Part shown: piece by piece, positions 595 to 29,328 of the stretch
Numbering within the stretch: position 1 is the first letter of the stretch
How the letters are laid out: every line of letters begins with the position of its first letter
Assembly: GCA_036499395.1 (NCBI GenBank)
Contig: DASYDW010000010.1
Span: forward strand, 11,668-75,667
Source: Pirellulales bacterium
Lineage (GTDB): Bacteria; Planctomycetota; Planctomycetia; Pirellulales; JACPPG01
Reading direction: 5' to 3'
Length of the DNA: 64,000 bases
Made by a program: the position numbers and the translations under genes
The notes under the pieces: generated by a model
What the model saw: only the letters and a program-made list of their open reading frames with translations
The model's database searches: none
Told to the model about the DNA's origin: nothing

Positions 595-1512
595 ATGATT
601 CGGACTATCGTGTGCTTGGCAGTTTTGACGTCCACGGTCGTCATGGGCCGCGGAGTGGCGTTGGCCGAGGAACCAGCCCCGCCTTCGCCCGATGAAGTGG
701 CGATTCGCAAGGCGATCGCCTCCTACGTCGAAGCATTCAATCACGGCGATGCAGCAGCCATCGCGAATCATTTTTCGGAAACCGGCAGCTACGTCGATCC
801 GATCAGCGGCGAGCGCAACGTCGGCCGCGAGGCCATCACCAAGGCGGTCGCCGAGCGCTTTACCGAGGGGAACAAGCCCAAGCTGAGCGTAACCGTCGAA
901 TCCATTCGCCTGTTGAATGACAGCGTCGCGATCGAAGAAGGCACCGCCACGGTGGTAAACAAGAGGGCGCCGCCGGAGGACAGCACGTACGTCGCGATTC
1001 ACGTCAAGAAGGATGGCAAATGGCAGCTCGACAGTGTGCGCGAAACCCTGTTGCCGGAGCCGGAGAGCGACGGATCCAGCCCGCTGGATGAGCTGGCCTG
1101 GATGGTCGGCCAATGGGCCAATAAGTCGTCGAGCGATACGTCGGTCGATACGGTTTGCGACTGGACGATGAACGGCGCGTTCATCACTCGAACATTCCGC
1201 GTCGCGGTTCAAGGGCAGCCGGTTATGGTCGGCACACAGATCATCGCCTGGGATCCGGTGAACAATCGCATTCGTTCCTGGGTTTTCGACACCGACGGTA
1301 GTTTTGGCGAAGGAAATTGGACCCACGAAGAGAACCGCTGGACGATCCGTACGACGAACACCTTGGCCAACGGCCGCAAGGCGACCGGTATTCAGATCAT
1401 TACCAAGGTTGACGACAACAGCTTCACTTTCGAATCGATCGGCCGGCAAGTCGACGGCGAGTTGCTGCCGAACGTCGAACCGATCACGATCGTGCGCCAA
1501 ACCAAAGACTAA
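595..1512 (+). CDS. Secreted two-domain NTF2-fold protein (SnoaL-like/DUF4440-like N-domain)
   Basis: ORF 568..1512 opens with GTG. An ATG at 595 is preceded by GGAG and followed by a hydrophobic signal peptide (MIRTIVCLAVLTSTVVMGRGVALA). 'IRKAIASYVEAFNHGDAAAIANHFSETG' is a typical SnoaL/DUF4440 opening helix. Confidence 0.7.
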   Translation: MIRTIVCLAVLTSTVVMGRGVALAEEPAPPSPDEVAIRKAIASYVEAFNHGDAAAIANHFSETGSYVDPISGERNVGREAITKAVAERFTEGNKPKLSVTVESIRLLNDSVAIEEGTATVVNKRAPPEDSTYVAIHVKKDGKWQLDSVRETLLPEPESDGSSPLDELAWMVGQWANKSSSDTSVDTVCDWTMNGAFITRTFRVAVQGQPVMVGTQIIAWDPVNNRIRSWVFDTDGSFGEGNWTHEENRWTIRTTNTLANGRKATGIQIITKVDDNSFTFESIGRQVDGELLPNVEPITIVRQTKD

Positions 1513-1544: not shown

Positions 1545-2951
1545 ATGACCAAAGTAGCAAGCCATCTCATGCTGTTCGTGATCCTGGTGGCGCAACCGGC
1601 TGAACTTTTGGCTCGTGGTGGTGGCGGCGGTCGCGGCGGAAGTTTTGGCGGCGGCCGTAGCTTCTCGAGCGCCGGAGGCCGTGGCTTCAGCGGCGGTGGA
1701 GGAAACTTTGGCGGCGGATCGCACAATTTTGGTGGTGGCAATTTCGGCGGGGGATCGCGTAATTTCGGCGCGGGCAACTTCGGTGAACACACTCCGTCGA
1801 TGAGCCATAGCTCGTCTTATAACCAGGGCTCGCGCGGCGCTTACGGCGCGGCGGGCGGATACGGCGGTCGTGAATTCGGCGGCGCTGGCGCTTACGGCGG
1901 CCGTGAGTTTGGCGGTGGGCAATTCGGTGGCGGGCAATTCGGCGCTCGGCCCAATGCCGGCGAGCTAGGACACTTTTTGAACATGCCGCAAACTGGCGGC
2001 AACTTCGGCGGCGCAGGGCGCGGTCCTGGCAATATCGCAGGAGCAGGCGGTGCCGGACGCGGTCCAGGAAACATCGGCGGCGCTGGCAAAGGCCCCGCTG
2101 GTAATCAGGCGGGCGATCGCATTCCTGGTGACCGCAATCTGAATAATCGCACGGCCGGAAATCTCAATCAGCAGCAGCAACAGCACGCGCAGAACATCCG
2201 CAACAATATCCAAAACAACCACAACAATTGGTACGGAAATCACAACAACTGGTACAACCACAACTGGTGGAACAACCACGGTGGCGCGTGGAATAACGGA
2301 TGGAATTATTGGCACGGCTGGGGCCCTGGCTATTTCTGGGGCGGGCTCGGCGTCGGCGCTCTATCCGGCTTCATGCTCGGTAACTGGGGAACGCCGTATT
2401 ACTACGGCTACGGCGCCGGCGGAAACGTCGCCTATCAAGACGGCGGCGTATACGTCAACGGTCAGTACGCAGCAACGCCTGATGAGTACTACGATCAAGC
2501 GCAGCAAATCGCGCAGACGCCGGTCAGCAACGATGCTCAGAACGGCGACTGGATGCCGCTGGGCGTGTTCGCTGTGTCGAGCCGCGCCGACGACGATCAC
2601 CCGGCGATGATGATGCAAATGGCCGTCAGCAAGCAGGGCAACCTGGCCGGCATGTACTACAACACCTCGGATGACGTGGCGCTGCCGATCCAGGGAGCCG
2701 TCGATCAAAAGACGCAACGCGCGGCGTGGACCGTAGGCGACAAGAAGAACACCGTGCTTGAGACGGGCATCTTCAACCTGACGAAGGACGAGACGCCGGT
2801 CTTGGTCCACTTCGGCGATGAGAAGACACAAAACTGGACGATGGTCCGCCTCGACAAGCCGGAATCGGGCTCGCAAGATGTTTTCGGCCCATCATCGGCC
2901 CAGCCAGCGCAAGCGCCTGCACCCGGCCCGGCCGCGCCGTCGGACTCGTAA
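1545..2951 (+). CDS. Secreted glycine-rich low-complexity protein (RGG/FGG repeats, N/W/H-rich tract, globular C-terminal domain)
   Basis: ATG at 1545 follows an AAGGGGA Shine-Dalgarno sequence. The signal peptide is MTKVASHLMLFVILVAQPAELLA. Residues 25-190 are GGGNFGGG/GYGGREFGG/AGRGPGNI repeats, residues 197-262 are N/Q/H/W-rich, and residues 335-440 have ordinary composition. The long ORF is kept open through the repeats. Confidence 0.75.
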   Translation: MTKVASHLMLFVILVAQPAELLARGGGGGRGGSFGGGRSFSSAGGRGFSGGGGNFGGGSHNFGGGNFGGGSRNFGAGNFGEHTPSMSHSSSYNQGSRGAYGAAGGYGGREFGGAGAYGGREFGGGQFGGGQFGARPNAGELGHFLNMPQTGGNFGGAGRGPGNIAGAGGAGRGPGNIGGAGKGPAGNQAGDRIPGDRNLNNRTAGNLNQQQQQHAQNIRNNIQNNHNNWYGNHNNWYNHNWWNNHGGAWNNGWNYWHGWGPGYFWGGLGVGALSGFMLGNWGTPYYYGYGAGGNVAYQDGGVYVNGQYAATPDEYYDQAQQIAQTPVSNDAQNGDWMPLGVFAVSSRADDDHPAMMMQMAVSKQGNLAGMYYNTSDDVALPIQGAVDQKTQRAAWTVGDKKNTVLETGIFNLTKDETPVLVHFGDEKTQNWTMVRLDKPESGSQDVFGPSSAQPAQAPAPGPAAPSDS

Positions 2952-3011: not shown

Positions 3012-3047
3012 GAAAAAGACCCCGGACGAGTTCGATCTCGCCCGGGG
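3012..3047 (-). terminator. Intrinsic terminator for the minus-strand gene ending at 3177
   Basis: On the minus strand, CCCCGGGCGAG-atcgaa-CTCGTCCGGGG (an 11-bp stem with one mismatch) is followed by TCTTTTTCG. Confidence 0.55.
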
Positions 3048-3176
3048 CCGTGCTTGATTCGCGAAAATGTTCGCTAATTCAATCTCGTTGCAGCGAGATT
3101 GGACGAGCGGGACGTCCTTGGCGACACGACCACGCGCCCAACCATCGGCAGCGTACTGGTCATTGCCGCCGAACGA

Positions 3177-4184
3177 CTACTTCTCGTCCTTGGCGGACTT
3201 GTCGGCACCCTTACCGTCGTCGCTCTTTCCTTCGCGGACGGTGACCTTCTCTTCGACTTCTTGTGTGATCTCGCGGTTCGGAGCGGTGATCGCGATGACC
3301 TGCTTCTGGACGCCCTCGGCCTTCAGCGTGCGGCCGGCGTTGACATCGAAGTAGATCGTCATGTCCCCTTCTTGTTCTTCGATCTCAATATCGACCTGCG
3401 ATTCCTCGGCCGGCTCGAACGTGATGTCGCTCTTGGCCGCGATCTTCTGAATCTCGTGTCCTTCGGCCGACGTCTTCTCCGAAGTGGAATACGTGACCTC
3501 GGTCTTCTTTACGCCCGCGCCGCGCATCTCTTCGGCGAAGCTCTGCGACCACTTCACATCAGGCGCGACCGCTTTCTCGGGCAGAGGAACGATCGAGCGC
3601 GTGATCATTTCCTTGATGCTGTTCTCGTTTAGGCCCCCCATCATGCCACCCATTCCGCCACCACCGCCGCGACGGCCGCCGCCACCGCCGCCCCCTTGCT
3701 GCTTGGCAAGTTGCTCGGTGACCTTTTCCGGCAGAGTGATGTCGCTAACCTGGCCGGTGGCCGTGGCCTTCAGCGTGAACGTCTGGCCGACAAGCGATTC
3801 GATCATCGGGCCCATCATGTCCCAGATTTGTCCCGTGCCACTGCCAGGCTTCTTCGAGTCGTAATCCAATCCGCCACCCAGGGGCGAATCCATCTTCATC
3901 TGAATGCGATCGACCGTTTGCTCGATCGAGGCGGTGCCGTCGGCGTCGACCGACTTCACCTTCCAACTGGTGTCGAAGATCATGCCCGATTTGATTTCGA
4001 TCAGTGAACCGGAGAGATCGATTTTCATATCCGTCTCGCGATCCATGACGTAGTTCAGGGTGTCGCCTTCCTTGAACTTCCAACGTAGCGTGTTGTCAGC
4101 ACGCGCGGCGCCGGCGGAGATCATTCCGCAAGTCGCGACAGTGACAGCGAGCAAGTAGTACCGATAAGCGCGAGAGCACAACAT
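3177..4184 (-). CDS. Secreted hypothetical protein with an internal poly-Gly/Arg insert
   Basis: ATG at 4184 (MLCSRAYRYYLLAVTVATCGMISAGAARA is a signal peptide). The composition looks beta-rich. 'QQGGGGGGGRRGGGGGMGGMMGG' is encoded at about 3632..3697. I recognised no catalytic motif. Confidence 0.7.
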   Translation of the reverse strand: MLCSRAYRYYLLAVTVATCGMISAGAARADNTLRWKFKEGDTLNYVMDRETDMKIDLSGSLIEIKSGMIFDTSWKVKSVDADGTASIEQTVDRIQMKMDSPLGGGLDYDSKKPGSGTGQIWDMMGPMIESLVGQTFTLKATATGQVSDITLPEKVTEQLAKQQGGGGGGGRRGGGGGMGGMMGGLNENSIKEMITRSIVPLPEKAVAPDVKWSQSFAEEMRGAGVKKTEVTYSTSEKTSAEGHEIQKIAAKSDITFEPAEESQVDIEIEEQEGDMTIYFDVNAGRTLKAEGVQKQVIAITAPNREITQEVEEKVTVREGKSDDGKGADKSAKDEK

Positions 4185-4643
4185 TTCGTTCGCCTTTCGT
4201 GTTTTGTAATGGACCGACGCTTGGTGAGGAACGCAGGAACAACTAACCAACCACCTACCACGCCAGACCCGCCGAACGCCGCGGCCTGCCGGGCCGTCGA
4301 CATCGCGATTGTGTCCGCCTGCAAACTCGTCCGCCTAAGAATCTGCCGCCCGAGAGGTTTCGCACTGCGGGTCTGCTACCGCCGTGGCCGGCTGTCGCCG
4401 GTCTGGCTGCAATTGTATCCCTCCCCGCGCGTTACGCAATCACGCGGCGGGCCCGCCTCCGGCCGCGATTTCGGCACGTCACGTCGCACCGAAACGACCT
4501 CCGGCCCGGTGCCTGACACCCCCGAATTGATCTCCAGCGCAACCTCGGTGCGAGGCCAGCGGTGGTGTGCTACAACGCTGGCTAAGAATCGGGAAGAATC
4601 GGATCAATCAACGCACGCTCGTCCTCAACGTGGAGAAGGAAAT

Positions 4644-27813: not shown

Positions 27814-29328
27814 ATGTCGCGAAAACTGTTCATCGGATTTGCTTTTTGCCTAGTCGCGCTGACCGACGCCGCGCGCGGCGCGGATTGGCCGCAGTTTCGC
27901 GGGCCGGGCGGTGCGGGATTGACCGACGAGTCGAAATTGCCAGCCCAGTGGAGCGTCGATAAGAATATCCGTTGGAAGGTCGAGATCCCGGGCGTCGGCT
28001 GGTCCTCGCCGGTGATTTGGGGAAACAAAGTCTTCATCACCACGGCCATCACGGAGAATCAGAAAAAGCCTGCTCAGTTCACGTTCGGTGGTGGTCGACC
28101 GGGAGGCGAGCGTCCTGACGGTGATCGTCCGGATGGTGAACGACCAAGACGCGAACGTCCCGCGGCCGACGATGCGAATCCGCAAGACGCGCCCGCAGAT
28201 CGGCCGAGCCCGCCCGCGGATGGCGACGGTCCCAAGGGAGAAGGCCGCCGGCGCCGCGGTGGCGGCGGCGGAGGAGGTGGTGGATTCGGCGGCGAGAAGC
28301 CTGATGCCCTCTACCGTTTCGAGGTCTATTGCCTGGATCGCAACACGGGCGACGTTCTCTGGAAGCAACTCGCCGCCGAGCAGAAGCCGGCGATTCCCAC
28401 GCACAGCACCAACACGTATGCCTCGGAGACGCCCGTCACCGATGGAGAACATCTCTATACCTATTTCGGCATGACGGGCTTGTTCTGCTTTGATCTCAAT
28501 GGGAAGCATATCTGGAGCAAGGATCTAGGCGTTTATCCGATGTTCTTGGGCTGGGGCACAGGAAGCTCGCCCGTCTTGGCAGGCGAAAACCTGATCGTGC
28601 AATGCGACAACGACAAGGAATCTTTTCTTGTGGCGCTGGATAAGAAAACCGGCGATGAGAAATGGCGAGTCTCGCGCGAGGACAAGTCAGGCTGGTCGAC
28701 TCCCTGCTTGTGGCGCAACAAGGTACGCACCGAACTAGTCGTCGCTTCTCCGAAACGTGCCGTTTCGTACGATCCCAAAGATGGCGCCGTGCTGTGGGAA
28801 GTCGAAGGCTTCGTGGGCCGATGCGCAGCGACGCCGGTGGGAGATGACGAGCGAGTCTATCTCGGTACCGGCGGTGGCATGGCAGGCAGCGGTCCCTTGG
28901 TAGCCGTGCGGGCCGGCGCGGCTGGCAAGTTCGCGCTTGCCGCCGGAAAGGAACAGCCTGAGCAGATTGCCTGGAAGCTGCCAAAAGGGGGCCCACCGAT
29001 GGCTTCGCCGCTGGTCTACCAGGGATATCTGTACATCCTGGAGGAACGAGGCGGATTGCTGAGCTGCTATGACGCCACCGACGGCAAGCGCGCGTACCAG
29101 CAACGTGTTCAGGGCGCGAAGGGCTTTACCTCCTCGCCGTGGGCGAACGATGGCAAGGTCTTCTGCCTGGACGCGGGCGGCGAGACGTTCGTGATTAAGG
29201 CTGGGCCCGAGTTCGAACTGCTCGATGAAAACAAGCTCGACGAAATGTGCTGGGCCACGCCAGCCGCGGCCGACGGTACAATTTTCCTGCGCACCACGGA
29301 TCACCTGTGGTGCATCAAATCACCGTGA
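27814..29328 (+). CDS. PQQ-like beta-propeller repeat protein with a ~80-aa Gly/Arg/Asp/Pro-rich insert
   Basis: Signal peptide, then 'ADWPQFRGPGGAG'. It is a paralog of 17785..19134. The insert at 28063..28305 includes 'GERPDGDRPDGERPRRERP...RRRRGGGGGGGGGFGG'. Confidence 0.85.
   Translation: MSRKLFIGFAFCLVALTDAARGADWPQFRGPGGAGLTDESKLPAQWSVDKNIRWKVEIPGVGWSSPVIWGNKVFITTAITENQKKPAQFTFGGGRPGGERPDGDRPDGERPRRERPAADDANPQDAPADRPSPPADGDGPKGEGRRRRGGGGGGGGGFGGEKPDALYRFEVYCLDRNTGDVLWKQLAAEQKPAIPTHSTNTYASETPVTDGEHLYTYFGMTGLFCFDLNGKHIWSKDLGVYPMFLGWGTGSSPVLAGENLIVQCDNDKESFLVALDKKTGDEKWRVSREDKSGWSTPCLWRNKVRTELVVASPKRAVSYDPKDGAVLWEVEGFVGRCAATPVGDDERVYLGTGGGMAGSGPLVAVRAGAAGKFALAAGKEQPEQIAWKLPKGGPPMASPLVYQGYLYILEERGGLLSCYDATDGKRAYQQRVQGAKGFTSSPWANDGKVFCLDAGGETFVIKAGPEFELLDENKLDEMCWATPAAADGTIFLRTTDHLWCIKSP

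What the first reader, a model, noticed from the sequence alone, without database searches (positions are those of the whole stretch)
1545..2951. Secreted protein with an hnRNP/FUS-like RGG/FGG low-complexity region plus an Asn/Trp/His-rich tract
A classical signal peptide is followed by about 165 aa of GGGNFGGG, GGRSF, GYGGREFGG and AGRGPGNI repeats (nt 1617..2114). This composition is strikingly like eukaryotic phase-separating RGG/FG low-complexity domains. Next comes an unusual tract (nt 2133..2330): NLNQQQQQHAQNIRNNIQNNHNNWYGNHNNWYNHNWWNNHGGAWNNGWNYWHGWG. A Gly-rich hydrophobic segment (FWGGLGVGALSGFMLGNW) and an ordinary-composition ~110-aa C-terminal domain follow. Prion-like Q/N plus aromatic-Gly sequences exported from a bacterial cell suggest a self-assembling extracellular or periplasmic matrix, hydrogel, amyloid or metal-binding material. 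The His/Trp/Asn density is notable. I cannot name a family for it.
Basis: partly seen in the sequence, partly recalled or inferred. Interest (0 to 1): 0.65.

Follow-up and report, generated by a model that had tools for sequence, protein, structure and literature searches.

The report
Exported glycine-rich tail plus β-barrel protein
This is a real gene for an exported planctomycete protein that joins a long, floppy glycine-rich segment to a small barrel-shaped binding domain; it belongs to a very large, unnamed protein family that almost always sits next to one particular partner gene, and what the pair does is still unknown.

Summary
The ORF (1545..2951, +, 468 aa) is real. It is called identically on two assemblies and is under purifying selection in this frame (dN/dS 0.06-0.17). 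The composition is as described: Gly 42%, 11 xFG motifs, and an Asn/Trp/His tract. However, it has only one RGG, and Arg is not enriched.

It is not an orphan. The C-terminal ~230 aa define an unnamed family with no Pfam, NCBIfam or PDB match. The family has about 2,550 clusters and occurs in at least 568 species of Planctomycetota and Desulfomonilaceae.

AlphaFold predicts aa 24-201 as disordered. The Asn/Trp/His tract is predicted to be part of the folded module: a helix, a conserved Trp-rich cap, then an eight-stranded calycin-like barrel. Trp richness is a family trait; Asn/Gln richness is specific to this lineage. There is no TM helix and no lipobox.

The disordered region carries family-conserved short motifs: A|RGGGGG, RSPSMSR and L..FLNLP. 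In 45 of 51 testable loci, a secreted NTF2-like + DUF1579-like gene lies immediately upstream.

Best reading: a Sec-exported envelope binding module on a cationic disordered tether, working with that partner. Self-assembly into a matrix remains possible but was not tested.

The parts
595..1512 (+). Conserved partner gene. It encodes a secreted two-domain protein with a signal peptide (MIRTIVCLAVLTSTVVMGRGVALA|EEP), an NTF2-like SnoaL_2/DUF4440 domain and a DUF1579-like C-terminal half. The longest ORF starts at GTG 568; ATG 595 is the likely start.
   Evidence: Pfam gives SnoaL_2 4.7e-12 and DUF4440 4.3e-11; NCBIfam gives TIGR02246 1.1e-15. All 32 of 32 orthologues hit SnoaL/DUF4440, and 7 of 32 hit DUF1579. 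PDB profile hits are NTF2-like folds (3cu3, 4e-13). A homologue lies immediately upstream on the same strand in 45 of 51 testable loci, with gaps of -4 to about 100 nt and 32 nt here.
1545..2951 (+). The gene in question (468 aa plus stop). It is a member of an unnamed family of exported proteins made of a disordered region plus a β-barrel.
1545..1613 (+). Signal peptide, aa 1-23. The predicted SPase I cleavage is ...ELLA|RGGGGG.
   Evidence: Best KD19 is 1.77 at aa 4-22. The family-wide junction is [DE]xxA|RG(G/F)GGGG. Cleavage is inferred, not shown.
1614..2147 (+). Intrinsically disordered, net-cationic Gly-rich region, aa 24 to about 201. It has evenly spaced Phe/Tyr (xFGGG repeats) and GRGPGNI repeats.
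   Evidence: AF2 pLDDT is <50. Gly is 39-42% and there are 18 aromatic residues, with gap variance 5.8 against 71 in shuffles. NCPR is +0.045. There are large in-frame indels relative to L003, and dN/dS is 0.17.
1785..1817 (+). Short linear motif EHTPSMSHSSS (aa 81-91). This is the local version of the family motif (N/Y)RSPSMSR(P)S.
   Evidence: The motif is present in 35 of 93 full-length family sequences from both phyla. In 0.95 Mb of locus DNA it is found only in family genes.
1947..2000 (+). Short linear motif RPNAGELGHFLNMPQTGG (aa 135-152). This is the local version of the family motif P(S/T)R.(Q/D)L..FL(N/G)(L/M)P(S/Q)D.G.
   Evidence: The motif is present in 45 of 93 family sequences and is exclusive to family genes except for one chance match. 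AF2 places a weak helix at aa 138-144.
2157..2399 (+). N-terminal part of the folded module, aa 205-285. It comprises the helix QQQQHAQNIRNNIQNN (aa 210-225) and the Trp-rich cap (WW..H(P/G)GAW..GW...W, aa 229-267). It also includes the Gly-rich segment FWGGLGVGALSGFMLGNW (aa 264-281).
   Evidence: AF2 pLDDT is about 90 for the helix and 56-80 for the rest. R219 is conserved in 89% of sequences and W241, W249, W253 and W265 in 91-97%. dN/dS is 0.11. No TM potential: KD19 is 0.92, and 0 of 46 family members reach 1.6.
2400..2543 (+). Small three-stranded sheet plus α-helix subdomain, aa 286-333 (YYYGYG...VYVNGQ...PDEYYDQAQQIAQ).
   Evidence: AF2 strands are at 295-298, 301-304 and 307-310, with helix 312-323, at pLDDT 80-94. 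Y287, G290, V302, A319 and A323 are invariant.
2544..2852 (+). Eight-stranded up-and-down β-barrel of calycin type, aa 334-436. Invariant W336 (G-D-W) sits at strand A and invariant R435 ends strand H.
   Evidence: AF2 pLDDT is about 90-94. Foldseek best hits are rhizavidin (E 7e-3, TM 0.50), avidin (TM 0.54-0.60), lipocalins, nitrobindin, NHBA, TbpB and hemophilin; none reaches E<=1e-3. Invariant residues are listed. dN/dS is 0.06.
2853..2948 (+). Disordered Pro/Ala/Ser-rich C-terminal tail, aa 437-468.
   Evidence: AF2 pLDDT is 42-54. The tail is variable in the family. In some members a TIGR03000 domain follows the barrel instead.
3018..3049 (.). GC-rich hairpin (13 bp stem, 10 G-C pairs) between the convergent genes. 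It is a likely transcription terminator, with the T-run on the minus strand and an A-run preceding it on the plus strand.
   Evidence: This is a consensus scan only.

Best explanation
Window 1545..2951 encodes a Sec-exported, soluble envelope protein (periplasmic or cell-surface). It belongs to a large, so far unnamed family.

Anatomy (shown or predicted here):
- A cleavable signal peptide with the family-typical ...A|RGGGGG junction.
- An intrinsically disordered, Gly-rich, net-cationic region of about 180 aa. It evolves fast by in-frame repeat gain and loss, but keeps short linear motifs (...TPSMS..., ...EL..FLNMP...).
- A folded C-terminal module of about 230 aa. It consists of a helix, a conserved Trp-rich cap, a small β-hairpin/helix unit, and an eight-stranded calycin-like barrel.

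The gene forms a two-gene unit with the gene immediately upstream. That gene encodes a secreted NTF2-like + DUF1579-like protein.

Mechanism (inferred, not shown):
- The Trp-capped barrel is the working part. It binds a small amphipathic or planar ligand, or a glycan, in the envelope. It acts together with the partner, whose two domains are also classic ligand-cavity folds.
- The disordered region acts as a flexible cationic spacer or tether. Its conserved motifs dock the partner or other envelope components.
- In this lineage the tether has also acquired an hnRNPA1-like Gly + evenly spaced Phe/Tyr composition. This may add weak self-association. That property is a lineage feature, not the family's core function.
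For: Real gene:
- The identical 468-aa product is called on two assemblies.
- dN/dS is 0.06-0.17 with in-frame indels only.
- GC3 is like the neighbouring genes.

Family:
- 336 word-indexed hits.
- 2,552 clusters at E<=1e-3 and 1,331 at E<=1e-30 in an exhaustive profile search.
- At least 568 species genomes. These are Planctomycetota, including cultured Blastopirellula marina, Bremerella, Roseiconus and Aeoliella, plus Desulfomonilaceae.

Export and solubility:
- 45 of 56 reconstructed ORFs have a signal peptide ending [DE]xxA|RG(G/F)GGGG.
- 0 of 46 have a TM-grade segment after it.
- This protein has no Cys, hence no lipobox.
- The only domain fusion is the planctomycetal TIGR03000 domain.

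Disorder versus fold:
- AF2 gives aa 1-201 pLDDT <50, helix 209-224 about 90, the Trp tract 56-80 and the barrel >90.
- Trp positions are 91-97% conserved.

Calycin-like barrel:
- All Foldseek hits are soluble 8- to 10-stranded barrels. They include rhizavidin, avidin, streptavidin, lipocalins, nitrobindin, NHBA, TbpB and hemophilin.
- W336 at strand A and R435 at the end of the last strand are invariant. This matches the calycin G-x-W / Arg signature described in PMC7521688.

Short motifs:
- RSPSMSR occurs in 35 of 93 sequences, L..FL(N/G)LP in 45 of 93, and (V/I)R(N/D)x(F/I) in 69 of 93, across both phyla.
- They are exclusive to family genes in 0.95 Mb of locus DNA, apart from one chance match.

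Cationic tether: net charge is positive in 56 of 61 family disordered regions.

Partner:
- It lies upstream on the same strand in 45 of 51 testable loci in both phyla. Gaps run from -4 to about 100 nt, with several 4-nt overlaps.
- This was confirmed independently with called genes and precomputed Pfam labels.
- Partner domains are NTF2-like in 32 of 32 and DUF1579-like in 7 of 32.
Against: - No ligand, localisation or expression data exist. Every source calls the family 'hypothetical protein', and no literature was found.
- The fold matches are weak: best E = 7e-3, TM 0.3-0.6, 8-19% identity. Model coordinates could not be inspected, so a binding cavity is not demonstrated. Small eight-stranded barrels such as NHBA and TbpB can bind macromolecules or have filled cores.
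- Signal-peptide cleavage is a heuristic call. Arg at +1 and +7 after the hydrophobic core could instead favour retention as a signal anchor.
- About 12% of testable loci lack the partner. P0100 on a 1-Mb contig is one example.
- Motif presence does not track partner presence (n is too small to decide). The motif-to-partner docking step is therefore pure inference.
- The very even Phe/Tyr spacing in this particular protein fits a self-associating material at least as well as a passive tether.
Confidence: 0.42

Rival explanations
1. Self-assembling envelope material. After export, the Gly-rich region with evenly spaced Phe/Tyr 'stickers' condenses into a gel-like or fibrous matrix in the enlarged planctomycete periplasm or on the surface. 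The folded C-terminal module acts only as an anchor or nucleator.
For: In this protein the disordered region is 39-42% Gly and 10% aromatic. Spacing is far more even than chance (0 of 5000 shuffles as uniform). It has 11 xFG motifs and is predicted disordered. dN/dS of 0.17 shows the region is constrained. The non-conserved neighbour DUF6263 also carries a Gly/Arg/Met run.
Against: - This composition is not a family trait. Only 15 of 60 family disordered regions have Gly >=30% and aromatics >=7%; many are Pro/Ser/Arg-rich or His-rich.
- What is conserved are discrete motifs and the folded module.
- The Q/N-rich 'prion-like' tract is predicted to be folded, and its N/Q content is lineage-specific.
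- No Curlin or other amyloid family hit was found, and no dedicated secretion genes lie nearby.
- The even spacing is partly a by-product of recent tandem repeats.
Confidence: 0.17
2. Membrane-anchored, periplasm-spanning tether. The N-terminal hydrophobic segment is not cleaved and acts as a signal anchor in the cytoplasmic membrane. The disordered region spans the wide periplasm like the TonB or NHBA linkers. The Trp-rich/barrel module engages the outer membrane, the cell wall or the partner at the far end.
For: - Conserved Arg lies directly after the hydrophobic core (A|RGGGGGR). Positive charge there is unfavourable for Sec translocation of the mature N-terminus in E. coli (established knowledge).
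- The disordered region is long (family median 187 aa).
- The Trp-rich, Gly-rich segment could be membrane-interfacial.
- Architectural parallels exist in TP0751 and NHBA, which combine a lipid anchor, a disordered region and an eight-stranded barrel.
Against: The junction matches SPase I rules in nearly all members: Ala or Gly at -1 and a small or aliphatic residue at -3. The hydrophobic core is short, about 10-12 residues, which is typical of cleaved signal peptides. No direct test was possible.
Confidence: 0.12
3. Bacteriocin-like effector with an immunity-like partner. The Gly-rich disordered N-terminus with embedded epitopes would act like a colicin translocation domain, threading through a target cell's porins and capturing periplasmic proteins. 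The NTF2-like partner would act as an immunity or chaperone protein.
For: - Colicin N-termini are disordered and carry short binding epitopes, such as the OmpF and TolB epitopes (PMC12927319).
- The unit is a two-gene module, several genomes hold more than one copy, and it occurs in two distant phyla.
- The disordered region evolves fast.
- NTF2-fold immunity proteins are known in polymorphic toxin systems (own knowledge, not tested here).
Against: - The C-terminal module is the most conserved part (dN/dS 0.06; 45-55% identity across phyla). This is the opposite of polymorphic toxins.
- It resembles no toxin fold.
- It has a Sec signal peptide, unlike colicins.
- The partner is upstream, secreted and has two domains.
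- No lysis, export or receptor-binding genes are conserved nearby.
Confidence: 0.04
4. Not a real gene: a frame artefact of GC-rich repeats.
For: The region is repetitive and GC-rich. Long shadow ORFs exist on other frames. Public gene callers often break or truncate family genes within the repeats.
Against: dN/dS is 0.06-0.17 in this frame with in-frame indels only. The frame continues into a domain conserved in about 2,550 clusters. The gene is called identically on two assemblies.
Confidence: 0.01

Closest known systems
TP0751 (Treponema pallidum) and NHBA (Neisseria meningitidis): exported proteins with an N-terminal disordered region and a C-terminal eight-stranded calycin-type barrel
   Same: The two-part layout is the same: a signal sequence, a long disordered region, and a small eight-stranded β-barrel at the C-terminus. 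NHBA barrels (2lfu, 5o1r, 6cuj) are among the Foldseek hits. TP0751 is described as a disordered region plus a lipocalin fold with a G-x-W/Arg calycin signature, and its disordered region is proposed to help ligand handling (PMC7521688). NHBA's disordered region is cationic (own knowledge), as are 56 of 61 family disordered regions here.
   Different: Both are lipoproteins, whereas this protein has no Cys or lipobox. There is no sequence similarity. This family adds a conserved Trp-rich cap and a β-hairpin/helix unit in front of the barrel. It also has conserved motifs in the disordered region and an obligate-looking NTF2-like partner gene.
Avidin/streptavidin/rhizavidin and lipocalins (calycin superfamily)
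   Same: The predicted fold is an eight-stranded up-and-down barrel. The best structural matches are rhizavidin (E 7e-3, prob 0.99, TM 0.50) and avidin (TM 0.54-0.60). A Trp at strand A and an Arg at the end of the last strand are invariant. The Trp-rich surroundings are reminiscent of avidin's Trp-lined pocket (own knowledge).
   Different: No Pfam Avidin or Lipocalin model matches any of 37 members. Identity is 8-19%. There is no C-terminal α-helix as in lipocalins. Biotin-binding residues could not be checked.
hnRNPA1/FUS-type low-complexity domains and FG-nucleoporin repeats (eukaryotic phase-separating regions)
   Same: The region is Gly-rich and disordered, with evenly spaced aromatic residues and literal GGNFGG/xFGGG units.
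   Different: There is only one RGG, no Arg enrichment and few Tyr. The protein is exported rather than nucleo-cytoplasmic. The composition is not conserved in the family. There is no homology.
Colicin intrinsically unstructured translocation domains
   Same: Both have a disordered N-terminal region that carries short, conserved binding epitopes (PMC12927319). Both are Gly-rich with Trp and Asn nearby (own knowledge).
   Different: Colicins lack Sec signal peptides, have variable cytotoxic C-termini and have downstream immunity genes. Here the C-terminus is the conserved part and is not toxin-like.
SnoaL/DUF4440 (NTF2-like) and DUF1579 proteins of Planctomycetes (the partner)
   Same: The partner matches these Pfam families and NTF2-like PDB folds.
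   Different: The fixed pairing of this two-domain secreted protein with the family of disordered-region-plus-barrel proteins has not been described in anything I could find.

Membership tests
Calycin superfamily (structural) | Closed 8- or 10-stranded antiparallel up-and-down β-barrel | tested here: inconclusive
   AF2 predicts eight consecutive strands at aa 336-435 with pLDDT >90. All Foldseek hits are calycin-type barrels, but the best E is 7e-3 and TM is 0.3-0.6. This is a prediction, not a structure.
Calycin superfamily (structural) | G-x-W motif at strand A packing against a conserved Arg/Lys near the end of the barrel (as described in PMC7521688) | tested here: inconclusive
   W336 and R435 are invariant in 37 sequences, and the query has G334-D335-W336. 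The Gly is not conserved family-wide. The Trp-Arg contact could not be checked without coordinates.
Lipocalin (Pfam Lipocalin/Lipocalin_2 and related) | Match to a family sequence model, and an α-helix after strand H | tested here: not met
   No Pfam hit for the query at E<=1, nor for any of 37 members at E<=0.1. A disordered tail follows the last strand, not a helix.
Avidin/streptavidin (Pfam Avidin) | Match to the family sequence model | tested here: not met
   No Pfam hit and no PDB sequence or profile hit. Only fold-level similarity to rhizavidin, avidin and streptavidin, with TM 0.45-0.60.
Avidin/streptavidin (Pfam Avidin) | Conserved biotin-contact residues | not tested
   No residue-level structural alignment or model coordinates were available.
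Surface/periplasmic lipoproteins with a disordered region plus barrel (NHBA, TP0751, fHbp/TbpB type) | Lipobox with Cys at +1 of the mature protein | tested here: not met
   There is no Cys anywhere in the 468-aa protein. The family junction is A|RGGGG.
RGG/FUS-hnRNP-type low-complexity domain | Multiple RGG/RG repeats with Arg enrichment, or [G/S]Y[G/S] repeats | tested here: not met
   1 RGG, 5 RG and 3 YG in 166 aa. Arg is 6% against a 7.8% background.
Sticker-and-spacer aromatic LCD (functional class, not a homologous family) | Disordered Gly/Ser/Asn-rich spacer with evenly distributed aromatic residues | tested here: met
   18 Phe/Tyr in 178 aa. Gap variance is 5.8 against 71 +/- 34 in shuffles, and 0 of 5000 shuffles are as even. 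The region is disordered in AF2. It is met for this protein only: 15 of 60 family disordered regions are of this type. Phase behaviour itself is not testable here.
Prion-like Q/N-rich domain | Disordered region of about 60 aa or more dominated by Asn/Gln | tested here: not met
   N+Q is 33% over aa 205-285. However, the tract is predicted folded (pLDDT 56-90) and carries 89-97% conserved Arg and Trp positions. N/Q richness is lineage-specific, with a family median of 9.5%. No PLAAC run was possible.
Curli/functional amyloid (CsgA-like) | Curlin repeats and csgG/E/F-type secretion genes nearby | tested here: not met
   No Pfam hit. The only conserved neighbour is the NTF2-like partner.
Helical membrane protein / glycine-zipper TM segment | Hydrophobic segment of TM grade after the signal peptide | tested here: not met
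   KD19 is 0.92 at aa 261-279. 0 of 46 family members reach 1.6. AF2 shows only a short helix there, aa 270-276, in a stretch scoring pLDDT 56-80. No Gly-zipper Pfam hit.
Sec/SPase I-exported protein | N-terminal signal peptide with n-, h- and c-regions and an AxA-type site | tested here: met
   Heuristic only. The query has K3, a hydrophobic core with KD 1.77, and LLA|R. 45 of 56 family ORFs have such a start, with Ala or Gly at -1. SignalP was not available and cleavage has not been shown.

The most novel reading that the evidence does not exclude
The pair is a bacterial, extracytoplasmic analogue of the FG-repeat/NTF2 system. The exported Gly-Phe-rich disordered regions would form a cohesive, selectively permeable meshwork in the unusually large planctomycete periplasm, or in envelope pores such as crateriform structures. 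The co-encoded secreted NTF2-like partner would bind the Phe-Gly or L..FLNLP motifs to enter, organise or dissolve that phase. More modestly, the conserved motifs of the disordered region could be docking sites for the NTF2-like/DUF1579 partner. That would define a new two-component envelope system built on a periplasmic disordered protein.
Probability: 0.05. Interest if true: 0.85.

Novelty: new variant of a known kind. Interest (0 to 1): 0.5.

Why it matters
Long intrinsically disordered regions with conserved short linear motifs are well known in eukaryotic cell biology. They are rarely recognised in exported bacterial proteins.

This family has about 2,550 sequence clusters and occurs in at least 568 species across two phyla. 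It has no Pfam, NCBIfam or PDB representative. It combines such a region with a new Trp-capped calycin-like module and an almost invariant NTF2-like partner gene.

Defining the family would:
- give a name and a testable hypothesis to thousands of 'hypothetical proteins' in Planctomycetota, whose envelope biology is still debated;
- correct a systematic annotation error, because many database entries are truncated to the last 160-290 aa;
- provide a natural system to ask what disordered, sticker-and-spacer-type sequences do outside the cytoplasm.

If the motifs dock the partner, this would be a new kind of two-component envelope module.

Tried and rejected
1. Family assignment by sequence. I tried Pfam and NCBIfam on the full protein and on the C-terminal 207 aa. 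I scanned Pfam on all 37 aligned members; the only hits were low-complexity ones such as Cornifin and Decapeptide. I also ran phmmer and a profile against PDB sequences. Nothing matched.

2. Homology search with the N-terminal 266 aa, to find the disordered module attached to other domains. The candidate list saturated on Gly-rich words and only 4 close relatives were returned. I replaced this with a motif scan of 0.95 Mb of held loci, which found the motifs only in family genes, apart from one chance match.

3. TM helix or glycine zipper for FWGGLGVGALSGFMLGNW. Rejected on hydropathy across the family and on AF2.

4. Outer-membrane-embedded eight-stranded barrel (OmpX/OmpA-like). Rejected by inference. 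All fold hits are soluble calycins. The strands carry charged residues on both faces. There is no C-terminal aromatic β-signal, and a 32-aa disordered tail follows.

5. Lipoprotein. Rejected, because there is no Cys.

6. Tat export. There is no twin-arginine motif in the n-region.

7. Does motif presence track partner presence? No association was found, with Fisher p = 0.16-0.67. Only 6 partner-less loci exist, so the test is uninformative.

8. Conserved neighbours other than the partner. None was found. The downstream DUF6263 gene is not conserved. Sulfatase-like genes recur in 15 loci but in no fixed position, as expected for sulfatase-rich planctomycete genomes.

9. Names and accessions for literature look-up. 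All entries are 'hypothetical protein' or unnamed. Searches for Planctomycetes with glycine-rich and disordered terms, for DUF1579, and for Planctomycetes with FG repeat and NTF2 found nothing relevant.

10. Promoter scan. No plausible sigma-70-type site was found upstream of the pair. The counts equal those in shuffles, and the scan may not suit Planctomycetes.


Full report
**1.

The ORF at 1545..2951 (+) encodes 468 aa. It has an AAGGGG Shine-Dalgarno-like site 7 nt upstream and contains no cysteine.

- Residues 1-23 look like a Sec signal peptide. They have K3, the hydrophobic core HLMLFVILVA (best KD19 1.77) and the junction ELLA|RGG.
- Residues 24/25-190 are 42% Gly against 7.7% in the window's other ORFs (P = 3e-33), with 11 xFG motifs.
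- Residues 197-262 are 33% Asn (P = 1e-18), 12% Trp (P = 1e-5) and 9% His (P = 3e-3).
- The DNA contains imperfect 36-nt and 18-nt tandem repeats.

One correction is needed. The region is not RGG-type: it has a single RGG, and Arg is not enriched. It is Gly-rich with Phe/Tyr, closer to hnRNPA1-type GGNFGG.

**2. It is a real gene in this frame**

- The identical 468-aa product is called on a 121.8-kb JGI metagenome contig and on an independent Logan assembly.
- GC3 is 0.70, like the neighbouring genes at 0.75-0.77.
- Against the closest orthologue (L003, an uncultured Planctomycetaceae MAG), every indel is in-frame.
- At near-saturated synonymous divergence (pS 0.57-0.72), dN/dS is 0.17 in the Gly-rich region, 0.11 in the Asn/Trp/His tract and 0.06 in the C-terminal domain.
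- The 'frame artefact' refutation therefore fails.

**3. It belongs to a very large, unnamed family**

- The C-terminal 207 aa found 336 homologues, all 'hypothetical'.
- An exhaustive profile search of 1.84 billion cluster representatives found 2,552 clusters at E<=1e-3 and 1,331 at E<=1e-30. The module sits at the C-terminus of proteins of about 350-600 aa.
- The carriers are Planctomycetota: Pirellulales, Thermoguttaceae, Planctomycetaceae and Isosphaeraceae. Cultured examples are Blastopirellula marina DSM 3645, Bremerella, Roseiconus nitratireducens (two copies) and Aeoliella.
- The family also occurs in Desulfomonilaceae and related 'delta proteobacterium' MAGs.
- Nothing matches in Pfam-A or NCBIfam, for the query or for 37 members.
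- Nothing matches among PDB sequences, by phmmer or by profile.

**4. Anatomy from structure prediction**

With a 45-sequence alignment, AlphaFold2 models the last 207 aa at pLDDT 81 and pTM 0.72. The model has a three-stranded sheet plus helix, followed by eight consecutive β-strands at pLDDT above 90.

The full-length model shows:
- aa 1-201 disordered, with pLDDT below 50;
- a confident helix at aa 209-224 (QQQQHAQNIRNNIQNN, pLDDT about 90);
- the Trp-rich stretch at pLDDT 56-80 with short helices;
- then the same barrel, aa 336-435.

Foldseek against the PDB returns only soluble calycin-type barrels. They include rhizavidin (E 7e-3, prob 0.99, TM 0.50), avidin (TM 0.54-0.60), streptavidins, lipocalins, nitrobindin, NHBA, TbpB and hemophilin. 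None reaches E<=1e-3.

W336, at the start of strand A (G-D-W in the query), and R435, at the end of the last strand, are both invariant. This matches the calycin G-x-W/Arg signature described in PMC7521688. I could not inspect coordinates, so the Trp-Arg contact and any cavity remain unverified.

**5. The Asn/Trp/His tract is reinterpreted**

- In the family alignment, the tract's Trp content is a family trait (median 11%). W241, W249, W253 and W265 are 91-97% conserved and R219 is 89% conserved.
- N+Q content is 33% here against a family median of 9.5%. Only the closest relatives share it.
- The tract is therefore a conserved Trp-rich part of the folded module with a lineage-specific Asn overlay. 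It is not a prion-like LCD.
- The Gly-rich 'hydrophobic' segment (aa 264-281) has KD19 of only 0.92, and 0 of 46 family members reach TM grade after the signal peptide.

**6. The disordered region is not merely compositional**

Family ORFs reconstructed from genomic loci start with a signal peptide ending [DE]xxA|RG(G/F)GGGG in 45 of 56 cases.

Inside otherwise fast-evolving sequence, discrete motifs recur in both phyla:
- (N/Y)RSPSMSR in 35 of 93 sequences. The local version is EHTPSMSHSSS, aa 81-91.
- P(S/T)R.(Q/D)L..FL(N/G)(L/M)P(S/Q)D.G in 45 of 93. The local version is RPNAGELGHFLNMPQTGG, aa 135-152.
- (V/I)R(N/D)x(F/I), leading into WW..HPGAW, in 69 of 93.

In 0.95 Mb of held loci these motifs occur only in family genes, apart from one chance match.

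Composition of the family's disordered regions varies widely. Gly runs from 7 to 50%, aromatics from 0.6 to 22% and Pro from 0 to 19%; some are His-rich. Net charge is positive in 56 of 61.

In this protein the 18 Phe/Tyr are spaced strikingly evenly. Gap variance is 5.8 against 71 +/- 34 in shuffles, and 0 of 5000 shuffles are as even. Only 15 of 60 family disordered regions are of this Gly-plus-aromatic type.

**7. There is a conserved partner gene**

- Clustering of flanking ORFs shows a single conserved neighbour: a homologue of window 568/595..1512, immediately upstream on the same strand.
- Gaps run from -4 to about 100 nt, with 32 nt here and several 4-nt overlaps.
- The partner is present in 45 of 56 loci. 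Five of the 11 exceptions lack enough upstream sequence to test, which gives 45 of 51.
- The pairing holds in both phyla: 30 Planctomycetota-type and 15 Desulfomonilaceae-type loci.
- It also shows up in independent gene calls with precomputed Pfam labels.
- The partner has its own signal peptide. It has an NTF2-like SnoaL_2/DUF4440 domain (32 of 32; PDB profile hit 3cu3 at 4e-13) and a DUF1579-like second half (7 of 32).
- The downstream DUF6263 gene is not conserved.
- The only domain fusion seen is a C-terminal planctomycetal TIGR03000 domain.

**8. Most likely mechanism**

Shown or predicted here:
- export;
- a soluble, non-lipidated mature protein;
- a disordered cationic region bearing conserved motifs;
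- a conserved Trp-capped calycin-like barrel;
- tight genetic coupling to a secreted NTF2-like/DUF1579-like protein.

Inferred:
- The barrel, possibly together with the partner's two cavity-type folds, binds a small amphipathic or planar ligand or a glycan in the envelope.
- The disordered region is a flexible cationic tether. Its motifs dock the partner or envelope components.
- The hnRNPA1-like composition in this lineage may add weak self-association.

I put about 0.4 on this overall, and much more on the anatomy than on the ligand-binding step.

Rivals:
The sticker spacing supports it. The non-conserved composition and the folded Asn/Trp tract count against it as the core function.
- Uncleaved signal anchor with a periplasm-spanning tether (0.12).
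- Bacteriocin-like effector with an immunity-like partner (0.04). The disordered-region analogy to colicins is real (PMC12927319), but the conservation pattern is the reverse of toxins.
- Artefact (0.01).

**9. Comparison with known systems**

Architecturally the closest are TP0751 and NHBA, which combine a disordered region with an eight-stranded barrel. Those are lipoproteins with no sequence similarity, so lipoprotein membership is tested and not met.

At fold level the module is calycin-like. Membership of the avidin or lipocalin sequence families is tested and not met.

The RGG/FUS label is not met. The sticker-and-spacer description is met for this protein only.

I rate the finding as a new variant of a known kind: an exported protein combining a disordered region with a calycin-like barrel. 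It represents an undescribed family and an undescribed gene pair.

**10. Limits**

- No SignalP, PLAAC, multimer prediction or model coordinates were available.
- There are no expression or localisation data.
- No literature on the family was found.
- The N-terminal homology search saturated on low-complexity words.
- The test of motif presence against partner presence was underpowered.

Noticed in passing
L083:4345-6579 (also L084); P0267+P0003 and P0268+P0002: Public gene calls for this family are systematically truncated or split in the Gly/Pro-rich repeats. On an 8.76-Mb genome contig the called product is 192 aa. The continuous ORF is about 700 aa, with a signal peptide (…EDVVA|RGMGGGGG) and the RSPSMSR and FLNLP motifs. 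In two ENA assemblies the closest relatives of the query are split into N- and C-terminal ORFs. Many database entries of 160-290 aa start at an internal Met in the Trp tract.
   Followed up: partly
window 3177..4250 (-): The convergent downstream gene encodes a DUF6263 protein (Pfam 5.5e-15). It has its own hydrophobic N-terminus and an internal QQGGGGGGGRRGGGGGMGGMMGG run. It is not a conserved neighbour of the family, so the shared Gly-run may reflect a genome-wide tendency, not a functional link.
   Followed up: partly
window 27814..29328 (+): A 504-aa ORF with a GRRRRGGGGGGGGGFGG run at aa 144, just before a PQQ_2/BamB-like β-propeller (Pfam 6.3e-23). It is another example in this genome of a Gly/Arg-rich linker in front of a folded β-domain.
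   Followed up: partly
window 3018..3049: A strong GC-rich hairpin (13-bp stem, 10 G-C pairs) lies between the two convergent genes, with the T-run on the minus strand and an A-run before it on the plus strand. It is probably a bidirectional terminator.
   Followed up: no
L066:6587-7537 and L078:5748-8746: In two Pirellulaceae/Thermoguttaceae loci a second partner homologue follows directly downstream. In L078 a second family gene also follows (SP…ADA|RGGRGGGG), so the pair occurs as a tandem duplication. Several MAGs carry two unlinked copies (for example L017/L031, L033/L069 and L019/L057).
   Followed up: partly
L030, L057, P0102 (Desulfomonilaceae): A subfamily in which the disordered region is His/Lys-rich (…GKRGGGGHHSGGAKAHHQAKSHPQKHKAVVHHHPQ…) instead of Gly/Phe-rich. 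It keeps the partner gene and the barrel. The His-rich tails could bind metal.
   Followed up: no
P0087, P0142, P0143, P0145, P0189, P0254: Some family members carry an extra C-terminal TIGR03000 ('plancto_dom_1') domain after the barrel (NCBIfam E = 1e-21 to 4e-24). This is the only domain fusion seen in the family.
   Followed up: yes
L014, L036, L060, L062, L068, L040 (Desulfomonilaceae-type loci): Most loci that lack the upstream NTF2-like partner belong to a Desulfomonilaceae subgroup. Its signal-peptide junction is ARGP(D/G)… rather than ARGGGGG, which suggests a diverged subfamily that may work without the partner. L014 and L068 have too little upstream sequence to test for the partner.
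   Followed up: no
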